Positions 6,812 to 39,530 of a stretch of DNA of 64,000 nt are shown here, piece by piece. Below the pieces are notes generated by a model. The model ran no database searches and was not told the DNA's origin. It saw only the letters and a list, made by a program, of their open reading frames with translations. This DNA is from Escherichia phage JN01: sequence record MN882542; one strand, 5' to 3'. How positions within the stretch are numbered: position 1 is the first letter of the stretch; every line of letters begins with the position of its first letter. The translations under genes and the position numbers were made by a program.

Positions 6812-8593
6812 ATGACTAAATCACTTTATGCAGTACCAGCAGGTTTAAACGCAGATGCTTACAAATCTGGTCATGTTTACCAGTACCCTAGTGCAACAGA
6901 GTACTTGATGTTTAACCTGACACCACGTAGCAATAAATGGTTTAACAGCCCTTTAGCAATTGACGGTGTAGTGGCTTTTGGTATTCAACGTTTTGTTAAA
7001 GATTACTTGATAGACCACTGGAATGCCACCTTCTTTGAACGTGACAAAAAAGAAGCAATTGATGAAATCTTAGAAGTCATGAACGGTGTTCTGGGTAAAG
7101 ATGCTATTGGTCGAGAGCATTGGGAAGCACTTCATGACTTGGGTTATCTACCAGTTGAAGTATACGCTGTAGAAGAAGGCACAGTTGTCCCTATGCGTGT
7201 CCCAATGATTGTCTTCCAGAACACTATTTCAGGTTTCCATTGGGTAGCTGGGTATCTGGAAGATGCTTTCTCTGCTGAGATTTGGAAGGCTTGTACCATT
7301 GCAACTATTGCATTGCACTACAAACGTATCTGTAAGAAGTGGGCTGACCTTACTTGTGACAACGACTTGCATTTACCTTACCAGTGCCATGACTTTGCTA
7401 TGCGTGGTATGTCCGGCTTCACTGATGACGCATTTAATGCTGTAGGACACTTAACCAGCTTCAAAGGAACTGATAGCTTCCCTGCTGTATATACAGCTAA
7501 ACGCATCTATGGACAGTCCTACCCAATCTCTGATATTGGTAGCTCTGTACCAGCCACTGAACACTCTGTAATGTGTGCAAACATTGCTTGGGAAGGTGGT
7601 AATGAGTTGATTGAAGAAGAAAGACGCTTTAAAGGTGAGTTACAAACCTTCCGTCGTTTCTTAACAGAAACTTATCCAACTGGTATTGCAAGTGTTGTTT
7701 CAGACACTTATAATTTCTGGAGAACTGTATCAGAAATCTTACCAGCACTTCGTAAAGAGATTATGGAACGTGATGGCAAACTGGTAATTCGTCCTGACTC
7801 TGGCGACCCTGTACATATTGTCACAGGTTATAAAGCAATCCACTTAGAGTGTGCTAAAAAGGCTTATTACGAACACCTAAGCAAGCTGGAAGCCAGTGAC
7901 ACAATGTTGAATGCTGTTCTGAACATGAAGCTTGAAAACATCAACTATGGTATTGCTGGATGGCTACTGTCAGAAGGCTACGAAATGGTTGTTGACAGAG
8001 AAGACTTTGAAGTTGCTGATACAGTGCTGTTGAAAAATGCTTATATGGTTGGTTCTGCAAACGTTGTAACGCGTCCTGTAGCAGAGATTGATGGGGCCAT
8101 TAAGACACTGTATAACATCTTCGGAGGAACTATCAACTCTAAAGGCTTCAAGGTACTGGATGAGCACATCGGCCTTATCTATGGTGACTCTATCACGTTG
8201 GAACGTGCAAACGAAATCCTGAAGCGTTTGTATGAAATGGGTTTTGCAAGCTCTAACGTAGTGTTTGGTGTAGGTTCTTACACTTACCAGTACATTACTC
8301 GTGACACCTTTGCATTTGCTGTCAAAGCAACTCTTGCAAGCATTGGTGGTAAAGAGATTATGCTTGCAAAAGACCCTAAAACAGATAGTGGTGTTAAGAA
8401 GTCTGCTTTTGGTGGTGTAGCACCCATGTGGGATGGTGAGAATCTGAAAGCTGTAGATGGCTATGGGTTCCAGAGCTTTGCAGATGCACTTGAACATCCA
8501 GCTTGTGCTTTACGTTTAGTCTTTAGCGACTCTGAGCAGTTCGGCTACACAACTCTTGGCGATATTCGAAATAATATTGACAAGCAGCTTTAA
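6812..8593 (+). CDS. nadV: nicotinamide phosphoribosyltransferase (NAMPT/NadV) family protein
   Basis: N-terminal NADAYKSGHVYQYP resembles the NAMPT substrate motif (DSYKVTHYKQYP); about 593 aa; ORF-track start 6794 is TTG, ATG at 6812. Confidence 0.75.
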   Translation: MTKSLYAVPAGLNADAYKSGHVYQYPSATEYLMFNLTPRSNKWFNSPLAIDGVVAFGIQRFVKDYLIDHWNATFFERDKKEAIDEILEVMNGVLGKDAIGREHWEALHDLGYLPVEVYAVEEGTVVPMRVPMIVFQNTISGFHWVAGYLEDAFSAEIWKACTIATIALHYKRICKKWADLTCDNDLHLPYQCHDFAMRGMSGFTDDAFNAVGHLTSFKGTDSFPAVYTAKRIYGQSYPISDIGSSVPATEHSVMCANIAWEGGNELIEEERRFKGELQTFRRFLTETYPTGIASVVSDTYNFWRTVSEILPALRKEIMERDGKLVIRPDSGDPVHIVTGYKAIHLECAKKAYYEHLSKLEASDTMLNAVLNMKLENINYGIAGWLLSEGYEMVVDREDFEVADTVLLKNAYMVGSANVVTRPVAEIDGAIKTLYNIFGGTINSKGFKVLDEHIGLIYGDSITLERANEILKRLYEMGFASSNVVFGVGSYTYQYITRDTFAFAVKATLASIGGKEIMLAKDPKTDSGVKKSAFGGVAPMWDGENLKAVDGYGFQSFADALEHPACALRLVFSDSEQFGYTTLGDIRNNIDKQL

Positions 8594-8607
8594 AAGTATA
8601 TGATAAG

Positions 8608-8632
8608 AGGCTCCTACGGGAGCCTTTTTAAT
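8608..8632 (+). terminator. intrinsic terminator
   Basis: GGCTCC-tacg-GGAGCC hairpin followed by TTTTTAATTT. Confidence 0.65.
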
Positions 8633-8646
8633 TTCTGGAGAAGATT

Positions 8647-8982
8647 ATGAAAATCAAAGAAATGAACATCAACATTGTCTTAGAAGAACGTTGGGAGAAC
8701 ATCAAGAAGCCTGAAAATGGTCATAAGTTCCTCAACAAAATCTTAGTGGCAGCTAAAGAAGAACTGACTGGCAAGGTTGCAGCAGCAATCACAATAAAGG
8801 TGTGTGTAAAAGGTCTTCCAGACAATCACCAATTTGCACTTGACGAGTTTAAAGAAAGCTTCTACAATCCAAACAAACAGATGCTTGAAAGTAACTTTGC
8901 AGTATCTACAAGTATCGTCCATGACAGAAGCTTTATCCTTTACAAGAATATGAGAGGTGAGTCATGCAAGCATATTGGATAG
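8647..8982 (+). CDS. hypothetical protein
   Basis: 111 aa ORF with GGAG RBS. Confidence 0.5.
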   Translation: MKIKEMNINIVLEERWENIKKPENGHKFLNKILVAAKEELTGKVAAAITIKVCVKGLPDNHQFALDEFKESFYNPNKQMLESNFAVSTSIVHDRSFILYKNMRGESCKHIG

Positions 8983-33653: not shown

Positions 33654-35069
33654 ATGAGCGAGTTATTTAAACATGCGCACCTTCATGCAGGTCGAACTGA
33701 AAATGGTGCTGTAAACCATACTTCATCAATGTCTGCTCTGGTAGACTTCTACAAATCCGCTGGCTCAAGCCGTAGCAATGTAGAAATCTTACCAGACCTG
33801 TTCTACAAAGCTTTGCGTGAGGATGTTGATGTTGCAGTTCGTATTTTACTGCATATGCGAGATGTACGAGAAGGTATGGGTGAGCGTAAAGCCTTCCGAA
33901 CTGTTTTATTTCAAGCGATTGAAGATAAAGTTTTAGAACCTACACAGGTTCTTCGCATTATGGATAAGATTGCAGAACTTGGTCGTTTTGATGACTTCAA
34001 AATCTTCGTAGGTACTCGTTTTGAGACAGATGCCTTCAAACATTTAGAAGCAGCATTACTAGACCCTGCAACAGCAGGTTTAGCAGCTAAGTGGTTACCA
34101 CGAGTAAAACCACGCCACAAACAGTTTGTAAAACGTTTCTGCAAGTTTGCAAACTTAAGTGAGAAGGAGTATCGCACACTGTTGTCTGCACTGTCTGATA
34201 CGGTTGAGCAAAAAATCTCTGCGAATGAGTTTGGCAAGATTGACTATAGTAAGATTCCTTCACTCGCTGCTGCACGTTACCAAAAGCTCTTTAACCGTAA
34301 AGATGGGGAACGTTACAAAGCTTACATCGAGTCACTCTCAAAAGGTGAGGCTAAGATTAACGCTGGTGCTGTTTACCCATACGATGTGATTAAATCTATC
34401 AAGTATGGTAATGCAGATGTAGCTAATGAGCAGTGGAAAGCACTACCAAACTGGATGGCAGAAGGTGAGAACATCTTGTGTATGACTGATGTTTCAAGCT
34501 CAATGTCTTGGGTGAATCTTGGTTCAATCACTGCCCTTGATATTGGTGTATCCCTTGCCTTGTATGTAGCAGAACGCAACACAGGTTGCTTTAAGAATGA
34601 GTTGATGGTTTATTCAACAAACCCTCATTTCATTGAACTGAGTGGTGATTTACAAAACCGTCATCGTCAAGTAATGCGTCATGTTGAATATGGTTCAACT
34701 AACTTACAAGCAGCTTTTGACCGTATTCTTGAAATAGGTAAGAGAAACAACTTGACTCAGAAAGATATGCCAAGTAAGCTTATTATCTTCTCTGATATGG
34801 AGTTTAATCAGGTTGATGGTGCAAATGGTCGTACAAACTTTGAAGCAATTCAGAGTAAGTACAAAAAAGCTGGATACGAAATGCCACAACTAGTATTCTG
34901 GTACTTAGCAAACCGTAATGGTACTTGCGAAGTATCTGTTAAGGATAATGGTGTAGCAATGGTATCAGGGTTCTCTCCAGCCACTTTAAAAGCTCTGCTT
35001 GGTGGTGAGAAGTTTGACCCAATCAGCGTAATGCTCAAAGCAGTAATGATTGACCGTTACATCTGGTAA
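33654..35069 (+). CDS. vWA-domain protein, candidate Ro60/Rsr-like (TROVE-vWA) RNA-binding protein
   Basis: 471 aa; C-terminal vWA with MIDAS DxSxS (LCMTDVSSSM) and downstream Thr/Asp positions; N-terminal 270 aa helical domain; sits just upstream of stem-closed Y-RNA-like elements. Confidence 0.5.
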   Translation: MSELFKHAHLHAGRTENGAVNHTSSMSALVDFYKSAGSSRSNVEILPDLFYKALREDVDVAVRILLHMRDVREGMGERKAFRTVLFQAIEDKVLEPTQVLRIMDKIAELGRFDDFKIFVGTRFETDAFKHLEAALLDPATAGLAAKWLPRVKPRHKQFVKRFCKFANLSEKEYRTLLSALSDTVEQKISANEFGKIDYSKIPSLAAARYQKLFNRKDGERYKAYIESLSKGEAKINAGAVYPYDVIKSIKYGNADVANEQWKALPNWMAEGENILCMTDVSSSMSWVNLGSITALDIGVSLALYVAERNTGCFKNELMVYSTNPHFIELSGDLQNRHRQVMRHVEYGSTNLQAAFDRILEIGKRNNLTQKDMPSKLIIFSDMEFNQVDGANGRTNFEAIQSKYKKAGYEMPQLVFWYLANRNGTCEVSVKDNGVAMVSGFSPATLKALLGGEKFDPISVMLKAVMIDRYIW

Positions 35070-35087: not shown

Positions 35088-35116
35088 TTGACAATGTGTT
35101 TGATACCCTTTAATAT
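35088..35116 (+). promoter_or_regulatory. candidate sigma70-type promoter for the tRNA cluster
   Basis: TTGACA, 17 bp spacer, TAATAT; second candidate TTGACA-18-TAAAGT at 35179..35208. Confidence 0.5.
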
Positions 35117-35234
35117 GTTCTACATAGAAACGAAATGAGAGCTTTTCTAAGATACTGAAAAATATTTTAAAAAAGTTCTTGACAACCACTAAAAAATAAT
35201 GTTAAAGTGGTTACATAGAGTTTGAAAAGTTTAT

Positions 35235-35392: not shown

Positions 35393-35403
35393 GCCAGTTT
35401 TGA

Positions 35404-35476
35404 CAGAAGACCAATTACAGCAAGTTTAATCTTATTCATCTGACACGAAATCGGACAAAGAAGAGATTTGGTCTGG
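35404..35476 (+). ncRNA. stem-closed structured element A (Y-RNA-like candidate)
   Basis: 5' arm CAGAAGACCAA pairs with 3' arm TTGGTCTGG; conserved ACAGCAA box after 5' arm. Confidence 0.35.
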
Positions 35477-35487
35477 TCATTAAGAAT

Positions 35488-35561
35488 TGCGGGTATAGAG
35501 AAAGGGCGTCTCACATGTCTCATTAGCATGGTATCGGCAGGTTCGACTCCTGCACCCGCCT
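35488..35561 (+). tRNA. tRNA-Met or Ile2 (CAT), slightly atypical acceptor/D junction
   Basis: Anticodon stem-loop CATGT-CTCATTA-GCATG, T-arm GCAGGTTCGACTCCTGC, CCA encoded; 1-72 pair mismatched. Confidence 0.55.
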
Positions 35562-35570
35562 CCAATTTTG

Positions 35571-35630
35571 CAGAAGACCGTATTCAGCAACAAACTACTT
35601 TTTGCGGATAAAAGAAAAAACACGGTCTGG
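35571..35630 (+). ncRNA. stem-closed structured element B (Y-RNA-like candidate)
   Basis: 5' arm CAGAAGACCGT pairs with 3' arm ACGGTCTGG; the two bases beside GACC covary relative to element A (AA/TT vs GT/AC). Confidence 0.35.
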
Positions 35631-35641
35631 CAATGTATTAA

Positions 35642-35715
35642 GGTTAGGAAGCACATAAGGTATGTGCGGTCGCCTGTTAAGCGAATGGCACAGGGTTCGA
35701 ATCCCTGACTAACCG
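35642..35715 (+). tRNA. tRNA-Asn(GTT)
   Basis: Acceptor GGTTAGG/ACTAACC, anticodon loop CTGTTAA, T-arm CAGGGTTCGAATCCCTG, CCA encoded. Confidence 0.65.
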
Positions 35716-35727
35716 CCAAATTTAAAT

Positions 35728-35812
35728 GTGTCGTTATCCCGTAGATGGTAGCGGTGGGGACTGTAAATCCCTTGTCATTGAGACTCGGTAGGTTCGACTC
35801 CTACACGGCACA
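35728..35812 (+). tRNA. tRNA-Tyr(GTA), class II
   Basis: Anticodon stem-loop GGGGA-CTGTAAA-TCCCT, long variable arm, T-arm GTAGGTTCGACTCCTAC, CCA encoded. Confidence 0.7.
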
Positions 35813-35821
35813 CCAAATAAA

Positions 35822-35895
35822 GGTTATGTAGTTTAACTGGTTAAAATACTCCCCTGTCACGGGAGATGATGAGGGTTCAAATCCCTTCGTAACCG
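35822..35895 (+). tRNA. tRNA-Asp(GTC)
   Basis: Acceptor GGTTATG/CGTAACC, anticodon stem-loop CTCCC-CTGTCAC-GGGAG, T-loop TTCAAAT, CCA encoded. Confidence 0.7.
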
Positions 35896-35984
35896 CCAAA
35901 TTATAATAAGTATTTCAAAATGCTGTTTGAGAGGGCTATTTAGCCTCTCCCTTAAAGAGTTCTTACGAGTATTCTTTAAAGGAG

Positions 35985-36061
35985 CAGAAGACCAAATTCA
36001 GCAAGTACGTATGATATTTTCAAGCCAATTTAATTTTGAAAAAATTTAAAACTTGGTCTGG
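35985..36061 (+). ncRNA. stem-closed structured element C (Y-RNA-like candidate)
   Basis: 5' arm CAGAAGACCAA, ATTCAGCAA box, 3' arm TTGGTCTGG. Confidence 0.35.
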
Positions 36062-36074
36062 CTCAACAAATTTA

Positions 36075-36206
36075 CAGAAGACCGTTTACAGCAAAACTTA
36101 AACAATCTATTTCTCCGGTAAAGAAAAGGCGAAGGTTCGATTCCTTCACTCGGCAGGTGTCGAGTTGGTGTAATGGTAGCACTTAAGATGATAAACAACG
36201 GTCTGG
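36075..36206 (+). ncRNA. stem-closed element D with embedded tRNA-like module (YrlA-like Y RNA candidate)
   Basis: Arms CAGAAGACCGTT / AACGGTCTGG enclose hairpin TTTCT-CCGGTAA-AGAAA, T-arm GAAGGTTCGATTCCTTC, capped helix ACTCGGC-AGGT-GTCGAGT and D-arm GTGTAATGGTAGCAC. Confidence 0.45.
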
Positions 36207-36216
36207 TAATTATCTT

Positions 36217-36354
36217 TGTAGATAAGTTATTAAGCTTACCTGTGAGTATGCGACCACAAAGGGTGAAAGGGTAAATTCTAGATTTAAACCCAACAATGCA
36301 CATCGCTACAGACCTTAAGCAAGTCTGGGTAGCTTATCTACAAAGATAATTTAA
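36217..36354 (+). ncRNA. structured element E: 21 bp inverted repeat pair around a CAGACC...GGTCTG hairpin
   Basis: TTATCTTTGTAGATAA at 36221 and its reverse complement TTATCTACAAAGATAA at 36335; inner hairpin CAGACCTTAAGCAAGTCTGG. Confidence 0.3.
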
Positions 36355-36355
36355 T

Positions 36356-36428
36356 GGAAGTGTAGCAGAATGGTGATGCGGCAGACTTTTAATCTGACAG
36401 GCGATGGGTTCGAATCCCTCCACTTCTA
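36356..36428 (+). tRNA. tRNA-Lys(TTT)
   Basis: Acceptor GGAAGTG/CACTTCT, anticodon stem-loop CAGA-CTTTTAA-TCTG, T-loop TTCGAAT, CCA encoded; paralog of 38064..38135 with compensatory stem changes. Confidence 0.6.
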
Positions 36429-36435
36429 CCAATAT

Positions 36436-36509
36436 GGTTCAGTCGCAGATAAGGTAATGCAGGGGTTTCATAAGCCCTATGAATGTGGGTTCGATTCCCA
36501 TCTGAACCT
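36436..36509 (+). tRNA. tRNA-Met(CAT)
   Basis: Acceptor GGTTCAG/CTGAACC, anticodon stem-loop GGGGT-TTCATAA-GCCCT with three G-C pairs, T-arm GTGGGTTCGATTCCCAT, CCA encoded. Confidence 0.65.
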
Positions 36510-36513
36510 CCAA

Positions 36514-36586
36514 GCTGGTATAGTTAAGAAGGTTATAACACTCCCCTGATAAGGGAATATCGGTGGTTCGATTCCACCTACCAGTA
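36514..36586 (+). tRNA. tRNA-Ile(GAT)
   Basis: Acceptor GCTGGTA/TACCAGT, anticodon loop CTGATAA, T-arm GGTGGTTCGATTCCACC, CCA encoded. Confidence 0.7.
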
Positions 36587-36604
36587 CCAATTTCAATAAA
36601 GTTG

Positions 36605-36633
36605 TTGACATTGAGATGTGACTACTTTATAGT
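36605..36633 (+). promoter_or_regulatory. candidate sigma70-type promoter inside tRNA cluster
   Basis: TTGACA, 17 bp spacer, TATAGT. Confidence 0.5.
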
Positions 36634-36956
36634 AACTGAAAATAATTCAGCATATGTATAATTCAAACACCAATACATGAGCGTTAGACGTAACACAATG
36701 TGGGGAAATTTGTTGTACATATTCTGAATAGTTTTCGTTGCGTAGCGTCTATTTTGCAAATTTAAAATAAATGCAAACGACAATGTTTTTCTGGCAGTAG
36801 CTTGATAGGCTAAACACCAGTGAGGTCTTCCAATCCCTCATCAAAGAATTTGGCGTACTCGCCCACGGTATGATTAATAAGGTGGGCAACATTCTAAAGG
36901 GTATCCCTTATGGGGCTTGGCTTAAATGCAATGAGTACCCTTTAAAATGTTAATTA

Positions 36957-37035
36957 CGGGGCGTATCTCAGCGGTCTTCTAAACCGCCGTTAACCGAGTA
37001 AGTGGAGTATGCGGGTTCGAGTCCTGCCGCCTCGA
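36957..37035 (+). tRNA. atypical tRNA-like gene, Arg(TCT)-type anticodon loop, no recognisable D-arm
   Basis: Acceptor CGGGGCG/CGCCTCG, anticodon stem-loop GCGGT-CTTCTAA-ACCGC, T-arm GCGGGTTCGAGTCCTGC, CCA encoded; only 7 nt between acceptor and anticodon stem, 23 nt variable region. Confidence 0.4.
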
Positions 37036-37053
37036 CCAATTTTGGATGAAATC

Positions 37054-37401
37054 ATGAAAACTTGTATTAGGTGCAAACTTAGCAAGGATGAAAGTGATTT
37101 CTACATGAAAGATGGTAGGAGAACTCATTCATACTGTAAAAAGTGTGTTAATGAGCAAACCATAGAAAGACAAAGAGCACTTAAACTTTCAGCTATTGAG
37201 TACAAAGGTGGAGTTTGTCATGATTGTGGTAAAAGGTATCATCCAGCAGTGTATGACTTCCATCATTTGAATCCTTCAGAGAAAGATTTTAACATTGGTC
37301 ATAGAAAAAGTCTTAAGTTCTCTCAGGAGCTAAAGGACGAACTTGACAAATGTGTTTTGCTATGTTCAAATTGCCATAGGGTAAGACATGCAAAGTATTA
37401 G
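37054..37401 (+). CDS. HNH endonuclease (homing-endonuclease-like) inside the tRNA cluster
   Basis: CxxC...CxxC zinc pairs with HNH core DFHHLNPSEKDFNIGH...CSNCHRVRH; ORF-track start 37009 falls in the tRNA-like T-arm, ATG at 37054 preferred. Confidence 0.75.
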   Translation: MKTCIRCKLSKDESDFYMKDGRRTHSYCKKCVNEQTIERQRALKLSAIEYKGGVCHDCGKRYHPAVYDFHHLNPSEKDFNIGHRKSLKFSQELKDELDKCVLLCSNCHRVRHAKY

Positions 37402-37538
37402 TTAGCAGATTGCTTAGACGACCTTATCGGGTCTCCGTGTAAGGAGGTGGTCTGTATCTCATGTTTTCCAGAACATGTAAATAATCTGAGAAGGGGCTTT
37501 ACAGTGTTGTGAGAATACGGTAAGCTTCGAATTATAGT

Positions 37539-37618
37539 GTGGGACGATGTTAAGACTCTAAGGCATGAGCAACGGCCTCCAAAACCGTTTCAAAGTGGTT
37601 CAACTCCTCCGTCCCATG
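37539..37618 (+). tRNA. atypical tRNA-like gene, Trp(CCA)-type anticodon loop, oversized D region and weak T-stem
   Basis: Acceptor GTGGGAC/GTCCCAT, anticodon loop CTCCAAA in stem ACGG/CCGT, T-loop TTCAACT, CCA encoded; may be degenerate. Confidence 0.35.
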
Positions 37619-37633
37619 CCAAAGTCTTATTAG

Positions 37634-37721
37634 GGGTAGGTAGCGGCTAATGGTAGCCAAACTGTCTTGAAAACAGTTGCCACTGTAGAGATACGGTGAG
37701 GGTTCGACTCCTTTACTTACC
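37634..37721 (+). tRNA. tRNA-Ser(TGA), class II
   Basis: Anticodon stem-loop ACTGT-CTTGAAA-ACAGT, long variable arm, T-arm GAGGGTTCGACTCCTTT. Confidence 0.7.
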
Positions 37722-37879
37722 GCCTAATAAGATTTAAAGCCAAGCTTCATTCGGATGTTGCTTTGGTATCCCTCGTGTATTGTCGTACACACTGATAAAG
37801 CACCTAGTAGGTGTCACGGAGAAGAGATAATATCAAGCTCTCCAAAGGTTCTAGTCACCGGATTAAACAAGACTATGCA

Positions 37880-37908
37880 AAGACCTATTTAGGTCTTTTT
37901 AGAGGGCT
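37880..37908 (+). terminator. hairpin with T-tract inside tRNA cluster
   Basis: AAGACCTA-ttt-AGGTCTT followed by TTTAGAG; repeats the AGACC/GGTCT arm motif. Confidence 0.4.
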
Positions 37909-37979
37909 TCTAAGGTTATTACAGCTTGTTGTGGAACCTTGTTGCTTAGGTTCTTAGAAGTTCTCTAAAAAGATTTAAT

Positions 37980-38053
37980 GCACCTATAGCCCAACTGGTA
38001 GAGGCAGCAGACTTAGAATCTGCTCAGTGTGAGTTCGAATCTCTCTAGGTGTA
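37980..38053 (+). tRNA. tRNA with anticodon TAG (Leu by anticodon), short variable arm
   Basis: Anticodon stem-loop GCAGA-CTTAGAA-TCTGC, 3 bp D-stem, 5 nt variable loop, discriminator A, CCA encoded. Confidence 0.5.
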
Positions 38054-38063
38054 CCAAATTAAT

Positions 38064-38135
38064 GCAGGTGTAGCAAAATGGTTATGCGGCTGACTCTTAA
38101 TCAGTAAGACGATGGGTTCAATTCCCTCCACCTGT
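38064..38135 (+). tRNA. tRNA-Lys(CTT)
   Basis: Anticodon stem-loop CTGA-CTCTTAA-TCAG, T-loop TTCAATT, CCA encoded. Confidence 0.6.
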
Positions 38136-38144
38136 ACCAAACAT

Positions 38145-38218
38145 TGGGGATGTAGTTTACATGGTTAAAACATAAGTTTTGCAAACTTAAGTACAGGGTT
38201 CAATTCCCTGCTTCTCCA
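38145..38218 (+). tRNA. tRNA-Ala(TGC)
   Basis: D-arm GTTT...AAAC, anticodon stem-loop TAAGT-TTTGCAA-ACTTA, T-arm CAGGGTTCAATTCCCTG, CCA encoded. Confidence 0.7.
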
Positions 38219-38226
38219 CCAATTAG

Positions 38227-38298
38227 TGCATCCATAGTTTAAACGGGAAAATTACAGTCTTCCAAACTGAGGTTGAGGGTTCGATTCCCTCTGGATGC
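38227..38298 (+). tRNA. tRNA-Gly(TCC)
   Basis: Acceptor GCATCCA/TGGATGC, anticodon loop CTTCCAA, T-arm GAGGGTTCGATTCCCTC, CCA encoded. Confidence 0.7.
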
Positions 38299-38308
38299 TC
38301 CAAATTAA

Positions 38309-38382
38309 TGCTCCTATCGTATAATTGGCTATTACGGTTGCCTTGTAAGCAACTTATCAGGGTTCGAATCCTTGTGGGAGCA
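38309..38382 (+). tRNA. tRNA-Thr(TGT)
   Basis: Anticodon stem-loop GTTGC-CTTGTAA-GCAAC, T-arm CAGGGTTCGAATCCTTG, CCA encoded. Confidence 0.7.
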
Positions 38383-38388
38383 CCAATT

Positions 38389-38476
38389 CAGAGGTCAAGT
38401 GAAAGACCGCTGGTGTCAACTGAAGACCGTAACAAATTCCACGGAGTTGAGTTAGCGGCACAACTTCAGACCTCTT
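38389..38476 (+). ncRNA. structured element F (multi-stem, GAAGACCGT motif)
   Basis: Outer stem CAGAGGTC/GACCTCT; nested pairs CCGCT/AGCGG, CAACT/AGTTG, CCGT/ACGG; contains CTGAAGACCGTAAC related to elements A-D. Confidence 0.35.
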
Positions 38477-38480
38477 TCAT

Positions 38481-38733: not shown

Positions 38734-38976
38734 ATGCAAACATTAATCGTCGTTGAACATGAAAATTCCAATAGCATTGAGTTTGTAAGGGTTCCCACTA
38801 TAGATACCCACATTTTCTTGAAAGTAGGCTGGGAATGTGACCCAATAAGAGTAGAAAAATTTATTGGTCATTACTTTGGTGGAAGACAACTTAAAAGTGT
38901 TAATTTTGAGACAATGTTACCAGAAAACTCAGAAACAAATAATAATGTTTACCTCCTTACAAGGATTAGACAATGA
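38734..38976 (+). CDS. hypothetical protein
   Basis: 80 aa ORF within tRNA cluster, weak RBS. Confidence 0.35.
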   Translation: MQTLIVVEHENSNSIEFVRVPTIDTHIFLKVGWECDPIRVEKFIGHYFGGRQLKSVNFETMLPENSETNNNVYLLTRIRQ

Positions 38977-39530
38977 GATATTTGAAGTATGTTTCATGGA
39001 TTTTCTTAGCTTTGCTAGAGCCATTTGCAGCAATCTTAGCAGTCATCTTAGCACCTTTTGTAGTTCTATTCTACAGTGAGAAGAGAGGACACTTACCTTT
39101 CGGCTTCAGATGGATGGAAACATATGACAACCCAATTGATGGTGATAAAGGTCATGTCGAACGATGGGCTAAGATTAGAAAGATTGGTAAGCTTGGTATC
39201 TATATGCAGAGAGTTGGTTGGCTCTGGAGAAACAAAGCTTATAACTTCTCTTACCATGTGTTAGGAAGAGATGTAAAAGATGTTACTAAGTGGAAAGGTA
39301 ATATCAATGTAAGTTCTAACCCTGAAGATAATCAGACAGGTTATCTCCTAATGTGGAACAGTAATGCTTGGGGATTATTCGCTTTTATCCCATCAATTAA
39401 ACTCTTTGGTAAGCAATTCTACTGGAGAATTTATGTTGGATGGAAACTTAAAAGTGTTGTTCCAAAAGAAAGAGCATTCTCAAGGGAAAGAGTTATGTTG
39501 GCATTCTTTATTCATCCACTGAGAAAGTAA
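38973..39530 (+). CDS. hypothetical membrane protein
   Basis: 185 aa; hydrophobic N-terminus (WIFLALLEPFAAILAVILAPFVVLF), Trp-rich. Confidence 0.45.
   Translation: MRYLKYVSWIFLALLEPFAAILAVILAPFVVLFYSEKRGHLPFGFRWMETYDNPIDGDKGHVERWAKIRKIGKLGIYMQRVGWLWRNKAYNFSYHVLGRDVKDVTKWKGNINVSSNPEDNQTGYLLMWNSNAWGLFAFIPSIKLFGKQFYWRIYVGWKLKSVVPKERAFSRERVMLAFFIHPLRK

What the first reader, a model, noticed from the sequence alone, without database searches (positions are those of the whole stretch)
35404..38476. Family of GAAGACC / GGTCTGG stem-closed elements recurring between tRNA genes
Seen in sequence: beyond elements A-D, the same arm vocabulary recurs in a hairpin at 37880..37908 (AAGACCTA...TAGGTCTT), in multi-stem element F (38389..38476, with CTGAAGACCGTAAC) and in the hairpin CAGACC...GGTCTG inside an inverted-repeat pair at 36217..36354. 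Conservation of the arms with variable interiors and compensatory changes suggests selection on RNA structure or on a protein-binding duplex, rather than chance.
Basis: seen in the sequence. Interest (0 to 1): 0.55.

Follow-up and report, generated by a model that had tools for sequence, protein, structure and literature searches.

The report
Phage Y-RNA-like genes among tRNAs

Summary
The window is a Felixounavirus tRNA cluster. The real repeat family has four members, all on the + strand: A 35401-35479, B 35568-35633, C 35982-36064 and D 36072-36209. Each has:
- a covarying 4-bp outer helix;
- an AGA/G internal loop;
- a 7-8 bp helix (AGACCNN/NNGGUCU);
- an invariant junction, UWCAGCAA;
- a variable interior.

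The "GAAGACC/GGTCTGG" words are only the local spelling of a helix that covaries freely elsewhere. The same module (AG-R-N4..UWCAGCAA ... N4-Y-CU-G) sits on the coding strand, mostly within 500 nt of homologues of ORF 33654-35069, in many unrelated phage and MAG contigs. That ORF (DUF2828 + vWA) folds like Ro60. D encloses a permuted tRNA-like domain (V, T arm, closed 7-bp acceptor stem, D arm), which is the YrlA architecture. Models built only from other lineages recover A, B, C and D.

A related phage, Arno18, keeps the tRNAs but lacks both the protein and the modules.

The hairpin at 37880, element F and the 36217-36354 repeat share only background-frequency 5-6-mers and are not members.

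Best reading: these are Y-RNA-like partners of a phage Ro60-like protein, a new variant of a known kind. Binding itself is untested.

The parts
33654..35069 (+). Gene for a 471-aa DUF2828 + DUF7788/vWA protein with a Ro60-like fold. It is the proposed protein partner.
   Evidence: Pfam DUF2828/DUF7788/VWA_2 and PHROG 850 'RNA-binding protein'. AF2 model pLDDT 88.9. The top 11 PDB fold matches are all full-length Ro60/TROVE structures (E about 1e-7, TM 0.52-0.65). The MIDAS residues D279, S281, S283, T349 and D381 are invariant in 38 homologues.
35179..35208 (+). Sigma-70-like promoter (TTGACA-18-TAAAGT, with TG extension) just upstream of the first tRNA. A second site lies at 35088-35116.
   Evidence: Consensus scan. 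The number of sites in the region equals the shuffle expectation, so this is only suggestive.
35401..35479 (+). Element A, a short Y-RNA-like RNA. Outer helix TGAC/GTCA, AGA/G loop, helix AGACCAA/TTGGTCT (35408-35414 / 35468-35474), junction TTACAGCAA (35415-35423). It lies between tRNA-Glu and tRNA-Met.
   Evidence: The leave-out covariance model R2 gives 34.6 bits, E 3e-5. The interior has two divergent alleles among relatives while the module is invariant.
35568..35633 (+). Element B, a short Y-RNA-like RNA. Outer helix TTGC/GCAA, AGA/G loop, helix AGACCGT/ACGGTCT, junction ATTCAGCAA. It lies between tRNA-Met and tRNA-Asn.
   Evidence: R2 gives 34.8 bits, E 2.7e-5. The outer helix changes GC -> GU -> AU across relatives.
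35982..36064 (+). Element C, a short Y-RNA-like RNA. Outer helix GAGC/GCTC, AGA/G loop, helix AGACCAA/TTGGTCT, junction ATTCAGCAA.
   Evidence: R2 gives 25 bits, E 0.004. Alignment across relatives.
36072..36209 (+). Element D, a long YrlA-like RNA. The same module (TTAC/GTAA, AGA/G, AGACCGTT/AACGGTCT, TACAGCAA) encloses a permuted tRNA-like domain:
- CUAU at 36107-36110;
- V hairpin at 36110-36126;
- T arm at 36131-36147 (GAAGG-TTCGATT-CCTTC);
- closed 7-bp acceptor stem at 36148-36165;
- U8 and G9;
- D arm at 36168-36182 (GTGT-AATGGTA-GCAC).
   Evidence: (partial tRNA match over V and T). Model R3, built only from 8 long forms of other lineages, hits 36075-36209 full length at 63.3 bits, E 1.7e-10, as the top hit in the window. 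The acceptor-like stem shows compensatory changes in phage SUSP1.
36208..36352 (+). Long inverted repeat: a closing stem of about 24 bp around a ~100-nt interior. It is a separate conserved structure and not a family member.
   Evidence: MFE -46.9 kcal/mol, z -6.5. Four compensatory pairs in the closing stem in SUSP1, while the interior diverges. No R2 or R3 hit.
37880..37897 (+). Small palindrome AAGACCTA-TT-TAGGTCTT followed by Ts. It overlaps and competes with a 27-bp hairpin at 37899-37978. Not a family member.
   Evidence: (the long hairpin has z -4.9).
38386..38480 (+). Element F, a 95-nt irregular hairpin between tRNA-Thr and tRNA-Val. It is nearly invariant in relatives, present as a single copy, and not a family member. 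Its function is unknown.
   Evidence: z -2.9. No covariation is available because it is about 97% identical even in SUSP1. Covariance model R1 finds only the window and SUSP1 copies among 34 sources.

Best explanation
Elements A-D are four small non-coding RNA genes of the Y RNA kind. They are proposed to be the cognate RNA partners of the phage's Ro60-like protein (ORF 33654-35069), which is encoded directly upstream on the same strand.

Proposed pathway:
1. They are transcribed with the tRNA cluster from the promoters at about 35088 and 35179.
2. They are released by the tRNA-processing cuts on either side, because each lies 4-12 nt from a flanking tRNA or from its neighbour.
3. Their 5' and 3' ends pair into a stem: outer helix, AGA/G internal loop, then a 7-8 bp helix with invariant A-U and G-C at its base and an unpaired G after it.
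4. The stem is topped by the invariant junction UWCAGCAA, opposite an A-rich 3' strand.

This module is the proposed protein-binding site. It is analogous to the bulged stem of Y RNAs but has a different sequence.

The interiors would be effector modules. They are short and fast-evolving in A-C (YrlB-like). In D the interior is a permuted tRNA mimic (V, T, closed acceptor stem, D), as in bacterial YrlA.

By analogy with Ro60/Y RNA/PNPase particles, the RNP would recruit or gate a host RNA-handling enzyme. The homologous protein of phage Bas63 (gp130) is reported to counter the Ppl defence system.

Shown here: the family, its structure, its covariation, its genetic coupling to the protein, and the Ro60-like fold.

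Inferred: expression and processing, physical binding, and the downstream function.
For: 1. Protein. The AF2 model (pLDDT 88.9) matches only Ro60/TROVE structures at the top. These include Xenopus Ro60, D. radiodurans Rsr and Thermus phage phiLo Ro60, all over full length with probability 1.0. The MIDAS motif is invariant.

2. Coupling.
- In 80 viral loci fetched through the protein (39-99% identity), a strict descriptor (AG + 7 bp + CAGCAA ... CUG) gives 94 hits on the gene's strand and 0 on the other. Shuffles give 0-2. Hits occur in 45 of 80 loci.
- A relaxed version gives 142 versus 15 hits, in 61 of 80 loci.
- In an independent set of 80 bacterial or MAG contigs, fetched after the descriptor was fixed, the count is 19 versus 1.
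- 68 of 113 hits lie within 500 nt of the gene: 0.44 per kb against 0.019 per kb beyond 2 kb.
- Model R2 gives 65 hits at E<=0.01, all on the + strand.

3. Structure. The helix covaries fully. Across 54 distinct sequences there are 137 double-sided changes, with all four Watson-Crick types at three positions. Slid controls pair at 31-42%.

4. Features not required by the descriptor are also conserved: an A 5' of the AG in 62 of 85, a T before WCAGCAA in 81 of 85, and an A-rich 3' junction.

5. Leave-out tests. R2 was built from 38 non-Felixounavirus short forms. It ranks B, A and C first in the 64-kb window. R3 was built from 8 long forms of other lineages. It ranks D first at 63 bits, E 1.7e-10.

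6. YrlA likeness.
- D has the V-T-AS-D order and the YUAY described for YrlA.
- RNAalifold on the long forms recovers the module helix, T arm and acceptor stem, with 15 of 17 pairs compensated.
- Rfam YrlA (RF02553) gives sub-threshold but significant full-length hits (29-39 bits, E 4e-5 to 0.04) exactly on long forms in L078 and L021.

7. Co-absence and uncoupling from tRNAs. Ounavirinae phage Arno18 keeps the tRNA cluster but has no DUF2828 homologue and no module. Conversely, L008 and L009 carry modules next to the gene with no tRNA genes within 7 kb.

8. Literature. Bas63 gp130 (a Felixounavirus) is 'structurally similar to Ro60', lies upstream of the tRNAs and counters Ppl. The authors only guessed that some annotated tRNAs might be Y RNAs (PMC11482910).
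Against: - There are no expression, end-mapping or binding data.
- The protein is Ro60-like by predicted fold only. It has no Pfam TROVE match and no PDB sequence match beyond the vWA region.
- The canonical Ro-binding motifs (GGUCCGA, GNCGAAN0-1G) are absent.
- D gets no Rfam YrlA hit at E<=10, and its relatives stay below the gathering score.
- About a quarter to nearly half of the protein loci (19 of 80 relaxed, 35 of 80 strict) have no hit. Possible reasons are variant motifs seen by eye, short flanks, or true absence.
- The 100% pairing figure is circular, because the sequences were selected by a pairing descriptor.
- The A15/C48 positions of D do not form the usual Levitt pair.
Confidence: 0.74

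Rival explanations
1. The elements are tRNA-cluster punctuation. In this view they are structured spacers that guide RNase P, RNase E or RNase III processing of the polycistronic tRNA precursor, independently of the upstream protein.
For: They sit in tRNA-sized slots 4-12 nt from flanking tRNAs. The 7-bp helix followed by an unpaired G resembles an acceptor stem plus discriminator. In some Clostridia-type loci the helix literally takes the acceptor position.
Against: Arno18 keeps the same tRNAs without the elements. L008, L009, L019 and L022 carry the module beside the protein gene with no tRNAs nearby. The position of the module tracks the protein gene, not the tRNAs. Most tRNA junctions in this same window have no such element.
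Confidence: 0.07
2. The module is a cis-acting operator. In this view the Ro60-like protein binds it in its own transcript, or in the tRNA-operon transcript, to autoregulate expression, and no trans-acting RNP forms.
For: 42 of 113 strict hits lie within 500 nt upstream of the gene, where a leader would be.
Against: In the window all four copies lie downstream of the gene and beyond two promoter-like sites. Copies come in tandem sets of 2-7. Long forms carry an elaborate tRNA mimic that an operator does not need.
Confidence: 0.1
3. The elements are decayed tRNA genes or tRNA-derived relics, or DNA-level inverted repeats (miniature mobile elements or homing-endonuclease targets), with no RNA function.
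For: D contains tRNA arms. HNH endonuclease genes are inserted in the cluster. The arms are inverted repeats.
Against: - The strand bias is absolute: 94 versus 0, and 65 versus 0.
- The AGA/G loop is asymmetric.
- G-U intermediates occur in helices.
- Helix sequence turns over freely while pairing is preserved across very distant lineages.
- The acceptor-like stem of D changes by compensation.
- No target-site duplications were seen.
Confidence: 0.04

Closest known systems
Bacterial and mycobacteriophage YrlA / YrlB Y RNAs (Rfam RF02553; Chen et al. 2014, PMC4201824)
   Same: - They are encoded within about 2 kb of the Ro60-type gene, often several per locus.
- The 5' and 3' ends form a stem.
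- One RNA per locus carries a permuted tRNA mimic in the order V, T arm, closed acceptor stem, D arm, preceded by YUAY. The others are short.
- Rfam YrlA gives significant sub-threshold hits on long forms in sister loci.
   Different: - The partner protein belongs to DUF2828, not Pfam TROVE.
- The proposed binding module (AG-helix-UWCAGCAA ... CUG) replaces GNCGAAN0-1G.
- The RNAs are embedded in phage tRNA or tmRNA clusters.
- Element D itself is not detected by RF02553.
Thermus phage phiLo Ro60 with Yrl1/Yrl2 (PDB 9KOP/9L5Y; PMC12135203)
   Same: It is a phage-encoded Ro60-fold protein with two adjacent phage-encoded Y-like RNAs. It is among the best fold matches of the window protein. That RNP was shown to assemble with host PNPase.
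   Different: phiLo Ro60 is a canonical TROVE protein, and its RNAs were picked by the CGAA motif. There is 16% identity to the window protein and no tRNA cluster context.
Metazoan Y RNAs with Ro60
   Same: A terminal stem with a bulged, conserved helix serves as the protein site, and a variable internal module serves as the effector part.
   Different: The sequence motif differs (GGUCCGA/UUGAC with a bulged C). Metazoan Y RNAs have no tRNA-like domain and are transcribed by RNA polymerase III.
Bas63 gp130 (PhageMaP preprint, PMC11482910)
   Same: It is the orthologous Felixounavirus protein, noted there as Ro60-like and as lying upstream of the tRNAs. Its deletion sensitises the phage to Ppl.
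   Different: That work named no RNA. It guessed that some annotated tRNAs might be Y RNAs. The candidates found here are the unannotated spacers, not the tRNAs.

Membership tests
Y RNA (functional class: ncRNAs bound by Ro60 orthologues) | Encoded next to a Ro60 orthologue gene | tested here: met
   A-D start 332 nt downstream of the Ro60-fold gene on the same strand. Across 160 loci, 68 of 113 modules lie within 500 nt of the gene. Caveat: the protein is Ro60-like by predicted fold, not by sequence family.
Y RNA (functional class: ncRNAs bound by Ro60 orthologues) | 5' and 3' ends pair into a stem carrying a conserved, bulged protein-binding helix | tested here: met
   The elements have an outer helix, an AGA/G loop and a 7-8 bp helix with invariant A-U and G-C at its base. 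The helix covaries.
Y RNA (functional class: ncRNAs bound by Ro60 orthologues) | Canonical Ro-binding sequence (GGUCCGA in animals; GNCGAAN0-1G in YrlA/YrlB) | tested here: not met
   The 5' strands read (N)CAGAAGACC in the window and AAAGRNNNN elsewhere.
Y RNA (functional class: ncRNAs bound by Ro60 orthologues) | Physically bound to, and stabilised by, the Ro60 protein | not testable with these tools
   This needs immunoprecipitation, EMSA or Northern blots in a deletion mutant.
YrlA (Rfam RF02553) | Permuted tRNA-like domain: (V) - T arm - closed acceptor stem-loop - D arm, with YUAY before V | tested here: met
   Element D has CUAU, a V hairpin, GAAGG-UUCGAUU-CCUUC, a 7-bp acceptor stem, U8, and a D loop with GG. 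The same order occurs in 8 long forms elsewhere, with 15 of 17 pairs compensated.
YrlA (Rfam RF02553) | Score at or above the Rfam gathering threshold (69 bits) | tested here: not met
   Element D has no hit at E<=10. Sister long forms score 29-39 bits.
Ro60 / TROVE protein | HEAT-repeat ring plus vWA domain with a MIDAS motif | tested here: met
   The top 11 Foldseek PDB hits are all Ro60, full length, TM 0.52-0.65. DxSxS...T...D is invariant. This rests on a predicted model.
Ro60 / TROVE protein | Sequence match to Pfam TROVE (PF05731) or to solved Ro60 chains | tested here: not met
   Only DUF2828, DUF7788 and VWA_2 match at E<=10. phmmer against the PDB finds nothing. A profile search reaches E 1.7, and only in the vWA region.
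tRNA gene | Complete cloverleaf recognised by ARAGORN or by Rfam tRNA at >=29 bits | tested here: not met
   ARAGORN calls none of A-D. Rfam tRNA covers only the V and T part of D, at 22 bits.
A-D family, as applied to the three extra items of the finding | AG...CUG-closed 7-bp helix with a UWCAGCAA junction, recognised by the family covariance model | tested here: not met
   No R2 or R3 hit at E<=10 at 36208-36352, 37880-37908 or 38386-38480. The one exception is a 13.7-bit, E 2.4 chance-level match at 37908-37945. The shared 5-6-mers occur at background frequency.

The most novel reading that the evidence does not exclude
DUF2828 proteins and these RNAs together form a large, previously undescribed branch of Ro60/Y-RNA ribonucleoproteins. 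It is spread through many phage lineages and phage-like contigs in bacterial MAGs. Its RNA-binding module is not the classical Ro site but appears to be built from a tRNA acceptor-stem-like 7-bp helix plus an unpaired G and a UWCAGCAA junction. The particles would act as anti-defence or RNA-surveillance devices, for example against Ppl or by capturing host PNPase, operating alongside phage tRNA and tmRNA sets.
Probability: 0.45. Interest if true: 0.8.

Novelty: new variant of a known kind. Interest (0 to 1): 0.68.

Why it matters
Ro60/Y RNA particles are known from animals, about 5% of bacteria and a few phages with canonical TROVE proteins. This work gives concrete, testable RNA partners for a much more common phage protein family. 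PHROG 850/DUF2828 had 2855 homologues at E<=1e-5 among the candidates scored, and it is currently annotated only as 'RNA-binding protein' or 'hypothetical'.

It corrects a published guess that some annotated tRNAs are the Y RNAs. It defines a short sequence-and-structure signature that can annotate these RNAs in hundreds of Felix O1-like therapeutic phages, where they are now unannotated or covered by spurious small ORFs.

It also links them to a protein already implicated in escape from the Ppl defence system. Finally, it offers a natural series of tRNA mimics, both permuted and non-permuted, attached to one protein-binding module.

Tried and rejected
- **Rfam scans.** The cluster was scanned at E<=5, and D alone at E<=10. 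No family covers A-D. The only hits are chance-level ones (Dicty_Class_I at E 2) and a partial tRNA match.
- **Known motifs, checked by eye.** The hairpin ribozyme (AGAA / N*GUC loop A), hammerhead and kink-turn do not fit. The 3' strands do not carry GUC or tandem GA, and the motif is not conserved outside Felixounavirus.
- **DNA palindrome or MITE reading.** Rejected on strand asymmetry and G-U pairs.
- **Sequence searches of the protein.** Searches against PDB chains and Pfam at E<=10 give no TROVE signal. Only the fold search was informative.
- **Literature.** A search for DUF2828 found nothing relevant. Supplements of the YrlA paper are not held, so real YrlA sequences could not be aligned directly.
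- **Element F.** Its covariance model finds no relatives beyond Felixounavirus and Suspvirus. BLAST of F, the IR and the 37880 region finds only near-identical copies. Their functions stay open.
- **Neighbouring genes.** They were checked for RNA-repair enzymes and none was found. The neighbours are a lysozyme, an Ig-domain protein, DUF5681, DUF7338 and DUF7217.
- **First descriptor.** A version requiring the AGA bulge and the 4-bp outer helix was too Felixounavirus-specific and was replaced.

Full report
**Context.** The window is a Felixounavirus (Felix O1-like) genome segment. Megablast gives 97.5% identity to Escherichia phage vB_EcoM_D4, with 367 phage records matching. ARAGORN finds 25 tRNA genes on the + strand between 35235 and 40890. 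The finding concerns the non-tRNA spacers of this cluster.

**The observation.**
- Exact CAGAAGACC occurs four times in the cluster (35404, 35571, 35985, 36075). GGTCTGG occurs four times (35470, 35624, 36055, 36200).
- The longer pattern AGAAGACCNNWTWCAGCAA occurs 4 times perfectly, against 0.9 matches expected at up to 3 mismatches.
- Folding and inspection show a shared architecture in four elements: A 35401-35479, B 35568-35633, C 35982-36064 and D 36072-36209.
- Each has a 4-bp outer helix that differs in every copy yet always pairs (TGAC/GTCA, TTGC/GCAA, GAGC/GCTC, TTAC/GTAA). Next comes an asymmetric internal loop (AGA on the 5' side, G on the 3' side), then a 7-8 bp helix (AGACCAA/TTGGTCT or AGACCGT(T)/(A)ACGGTCT), then the junction WTWCAGCAA.
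- The three extra items of the finding exist as sequence, but the inner hairpin of the 36217-36354 repeat is CAGAC/GTCTG, not CAGACC/GGTCTG.
- Outside A-D, AGACC and GGTCT occur in the cluster at the window's background rate. The 'shared arm vocabulary' of the extra items is therefore what chance gives.

**The upstream gene.** ORF 33654-35069 ends 332 nt before element A, on the same strand.
- It carries Pfam DUF2828 and DUF7788/vWA and belongs to PHROG 850, 'RNA-binding protein'.
- Sequence searches do not connect it to anything solved.
- An AlphaFold2 model from a 38-sequence alignment has pLDDT 88.9 and pTM 0.89.
- Foldseek against the PDB returns Ro60/TROVE proteins as the 11 best matches, all full length. 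They include Thermus phage phiLo Ro60, Xenopus Ro60 with Y RNA or misfolded RNA, and D. radiodurans Rsr (E about 1e-7, TM 0.52-0.65).
- The vWA MIDAS residues are invariant in the family.
- A 2024 preprint noted the same structural similarity for the orthologue gp130 of Felixounavirus Bas63. It showed that deleting the gene sensitises the phage to the Ppl defence system. It only speculated that some annotated tRNAs might be Y RNAs (PMC11482910).

**Coupling of RNA and protein.** I fetched 80 viral loci through the protein (39-99% identity).
- In the 48%-identical L006 the same four-element arrangement recurs with entirely different helix sequences: AGAGCAC/GTGCTCT, AGAGCAGT/ACTGCTCT and AGGACAC/GTGTCCT. 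The TTCAGCAA junction is unchanged.
- A strict descriptor (AG, at least 7 bp, CAGCAA within 2-3 nt, 3' strand ending CT then G) gives 94 hits on the gene's strand, none on the opposite strand and 0-2 in shuffled sequence. Hits occur in 45 of 80 loci.
- A relaxed version gives 142 versus 15 hits, in 61 of 80 loci.
- Eye inspection of 'negative' loci shows variants such as UGGUUCC..UACAGCAA..GGAACCA-G and AAGAUGNN..UUCUGCAA.
- An independent set of 80 bacterial or MAG contigs, fetched after the descriptor was fixed, gives 19 versus 1.
- 68 of 113 strict hits lie within 500 nt of the gene, a roughly 23-fold higher density than beyond 2 kb.
- The helix covaries freely: 54 distinct sequences, 137 double-sided changes, all four Watson-Crick pairs at three positions. 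The 100% pairing there is circular, because the set was chosen by pairing. The strand and shuffle controls are the non-circular evidence.
- Features the descriptor did not require are also conserved: an A before the AG, a U before WCAGCAA, and an A-rich 3' junction.

**Leave-out membership tests.**
- A covariance model built from 38 short forms, none from Felixounavirus or Suspvirus, was run with filters off on both strands of the window. It ranks B, A and C first (34.8, 34.6 and 25.0 bits; E 3e-5, 3e-5, 4e-3) and D sixth. D is penalised for its long interior.
- Nothing is found at the 37880 hairpin, F or the inverted repeat.
- On the 80 viral loci the same model gives 65 hits at E<=0.01, all on the + strand. 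These include A-C of L001-L005, which were not in the training set.

**The long form.** Element D encloses CUAU, a V hairpin, a T arm with the canonical UUCGAUU loop, a 7-bp stem closed by a 4-nt loop, U8 and G9, and a D arm with GG in its loop.
- This is the V - T - acceptor stem-loop - D order, preceded by YUAY, that defines bacterial YrlA RNAs (PMC4201824).
- The same arrangement inside the same module occurs in L006, L011, L021 (twice), L075, L078 (twice), L165 and others.
- RNAalifold on eight of them recovers the module helix, T arm and acceptor stem, with 15 of 17 pairs compensated.
- A model built from those eight hits window 36075-36209 full length at 63.3 bits, E 1.7e-10. That is far above the next hits: element A at 26 bits and tRNA pairs at no more than 24.5 bits.
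- Rfam's own YrlA model gives significant but sub-threshold full-length hits (29-39 bits against a gathering score of 69) on long forms in L078 and L021. The alignment matches the tRNA-like core, not the outer stems.
- Element D itself is not detected by RF02553.
- In Clostridia-type loci the module helix instead occupies the acceptor-stem position of a normally ordered D - anticodon - T body. This, the 7-bp length and the trailing unpaired G suggest the module derives from a tRNA acceptor stem.

**Within the genus.** Alignments of A-D from the window, five IMG/VR Felixounaviruses, NBEco005 and SUSP1 show invariant modules.
- Interiors of A and B are replaced by unrelated alleles.
- GC -> GU -> AU transitions occur in the outer helix of B.
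- The acceptor-like stem of D changes by compensation in SUSP1.
- Pectobacterium phage Arno18 (Ounavirinae) retains the tRNA-Pro/Glu/Met/Tyr/Asn/Asp cluster. It has no homologue of the protein anywhere in its genome (tblastn E>0.1) and no module.
- L008 and L009 have modules beside the gene and no tRNA genes within 7 kb.
- The elements therefore follow the protein, not the tRNAs.

**Mechanism.** Shown here: a strand-specific, covarying RNA family, its tRNA-mimic long form, its genetic linkage to a Ro60-fold protein, and its absence where the protein is absent.

Inferred: co-transcription with the tRNAs from the sigma-70-like sites at 35088 and 35179. Those sites are not enriched over shuffles. 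Release by flanking tRNA processing is also inferred, as are binding of the module by the protein and an effector role of the interiors.

The effector role could be recruitment of host PNPase or tRNA enzymes. Precedents are D. radiodurans, Salmonella and phiLo RNPs and the Ppl-counter phenotype of Bas63 gp130.

**The three extra items.**
- The 36208-36352 repeat is a genuine structure: z -6.5, with four compensatory pairs in the 24-bp closing stem in SUSP1.
- The 37880 palindrome overlaps a 27-bp hairpin (z -4.9).
- F is a nearly invariant 95-nt hairpin with no relatives outside Felixounavirus and Suspvirus.
- All three are interesting spacers, but they are different things and their functions remain unknown.

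**Novelty.** The searchable literature links phage Y RNAs only to canonical TROVE proteins: mycobacteriophages, CcrColossus, Bacillus phage G and phiLo. It contains no description of these RNAs or of the UWCAGCAA module.

The closest annotated record leaves A-D unannotated or under spurious small ORFs.

I rate it a new variant of a known kind: Y RNA/YrlA-like RNAs with a new binding module and a new protein family partner.

Noticed in passing
window 36208-36352 (+): A 145-nt element closed by a ~24-bp stem (MFE -46.9 kcal/mol, z -6.5). The stem keeps pairing through four compensatory changes in phage SUSP1 while the interior diverges. It may be an RNase III-type processing site or a further ncRNA.
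   Followed up: partly
window 38386-38480 (+): Element F is a 95-nt irregular hairpin between tRNA-Thr and tRNA-Val. It is about 97% identical even in SUSP1, where neighbouring spacers are about 84% identical. It is a single copy with no relatives found outside Felixounavirus and Suspvirus. Function unknown.
   Followed up: partly
window 37899-37978 (+): A 27-bp near-perfect hairpin (z -4.9) lies just upstream of tRNA-Leu. It competes with the small AAGACCTA/TAGGTCTT palindrome. There is one compensatory and several one-sided changes in SUSP1.
   Followed up: partly
window 36957-37035 and 37541-37615 (+): Two tRNA-like genes were missed by ARAGORN. The first scores 31.7 bits with Rfam tRNA; its anticodon loop reads CUUCUAA (UCU, Arg by my own reading), and SUSP1 annotates a tRNA-Arg in the corresponding stretch (correspondence inferred from flanking matches, not aligned directly). 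The second is a weak tRNA-Sec-model hit (21 bits) with a possible CCA anticodon and an odd D region.
   Followed up: no
window 36605-36956 (+): A near-consensus promoter (TTGACA-17-TATAGT, 11 of 12) is followed by about 320 nt of highly structured non-coding sequence (z -4.25). It gives weak permuted-tmRNA/tmRNA model hits (23.6 and 11.9 bits). Relative to most relatives the window carries a ~92-nt insertion here.
   Followed up: partly
L021 8605-9054, L029 12822-13178, L030 13119-13481: In several distant phages the DUF2828 gene and its RNA modules lie next to a phage-encoded tmRNA gene as well as tRNA genes.
   Followed up: no
L103, L117, L120, L126, L144 and similar loci (Clostridia-type contigs): These loci carry a variant architecture. 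The module helix (AAGGCNC.../...GNGCCUU-G) takes the place of the acceptor stem of a normally ordered D arm - anticodon-like arm - T arm body, with NACAGCAA inserted after the 5' strand.
   Followed up: partly
L008, L009, L019, L022, about 8470-8730: A second, long (~250-nt interior) module-closed RNA (GGAUCG-GUACAGCAA ... CGAUCC-C-G) follows directly after a short one. Its interior shows no T arm, and its nature is unknown.
   Followed up: no
window 39017-39226 (+), inside ORF 38973-39530 (DUF7338): A descriptor hit (AGAGCCA..TTTGCAGCAA ... TGGCTCT-G) lies within a coding region and is conserved in L002 and L003. It is probably a chance match preserved by coding constraint.
   Followed up: no
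window 37054-37401 (+): An HNH endonuclease ORF is inserted in the tRNA cluster, starting about 20 nt after the atypical tRNA-Arg. Relatives carry different HNH or endonuclease VII insertions at varying positions.
   Followed up: no
L017 12696-12922: A group I intron (Rfam, 71.5 bits) lies in a distant phage locus that also encodes the DUF2828 protein.
   Followed up: no
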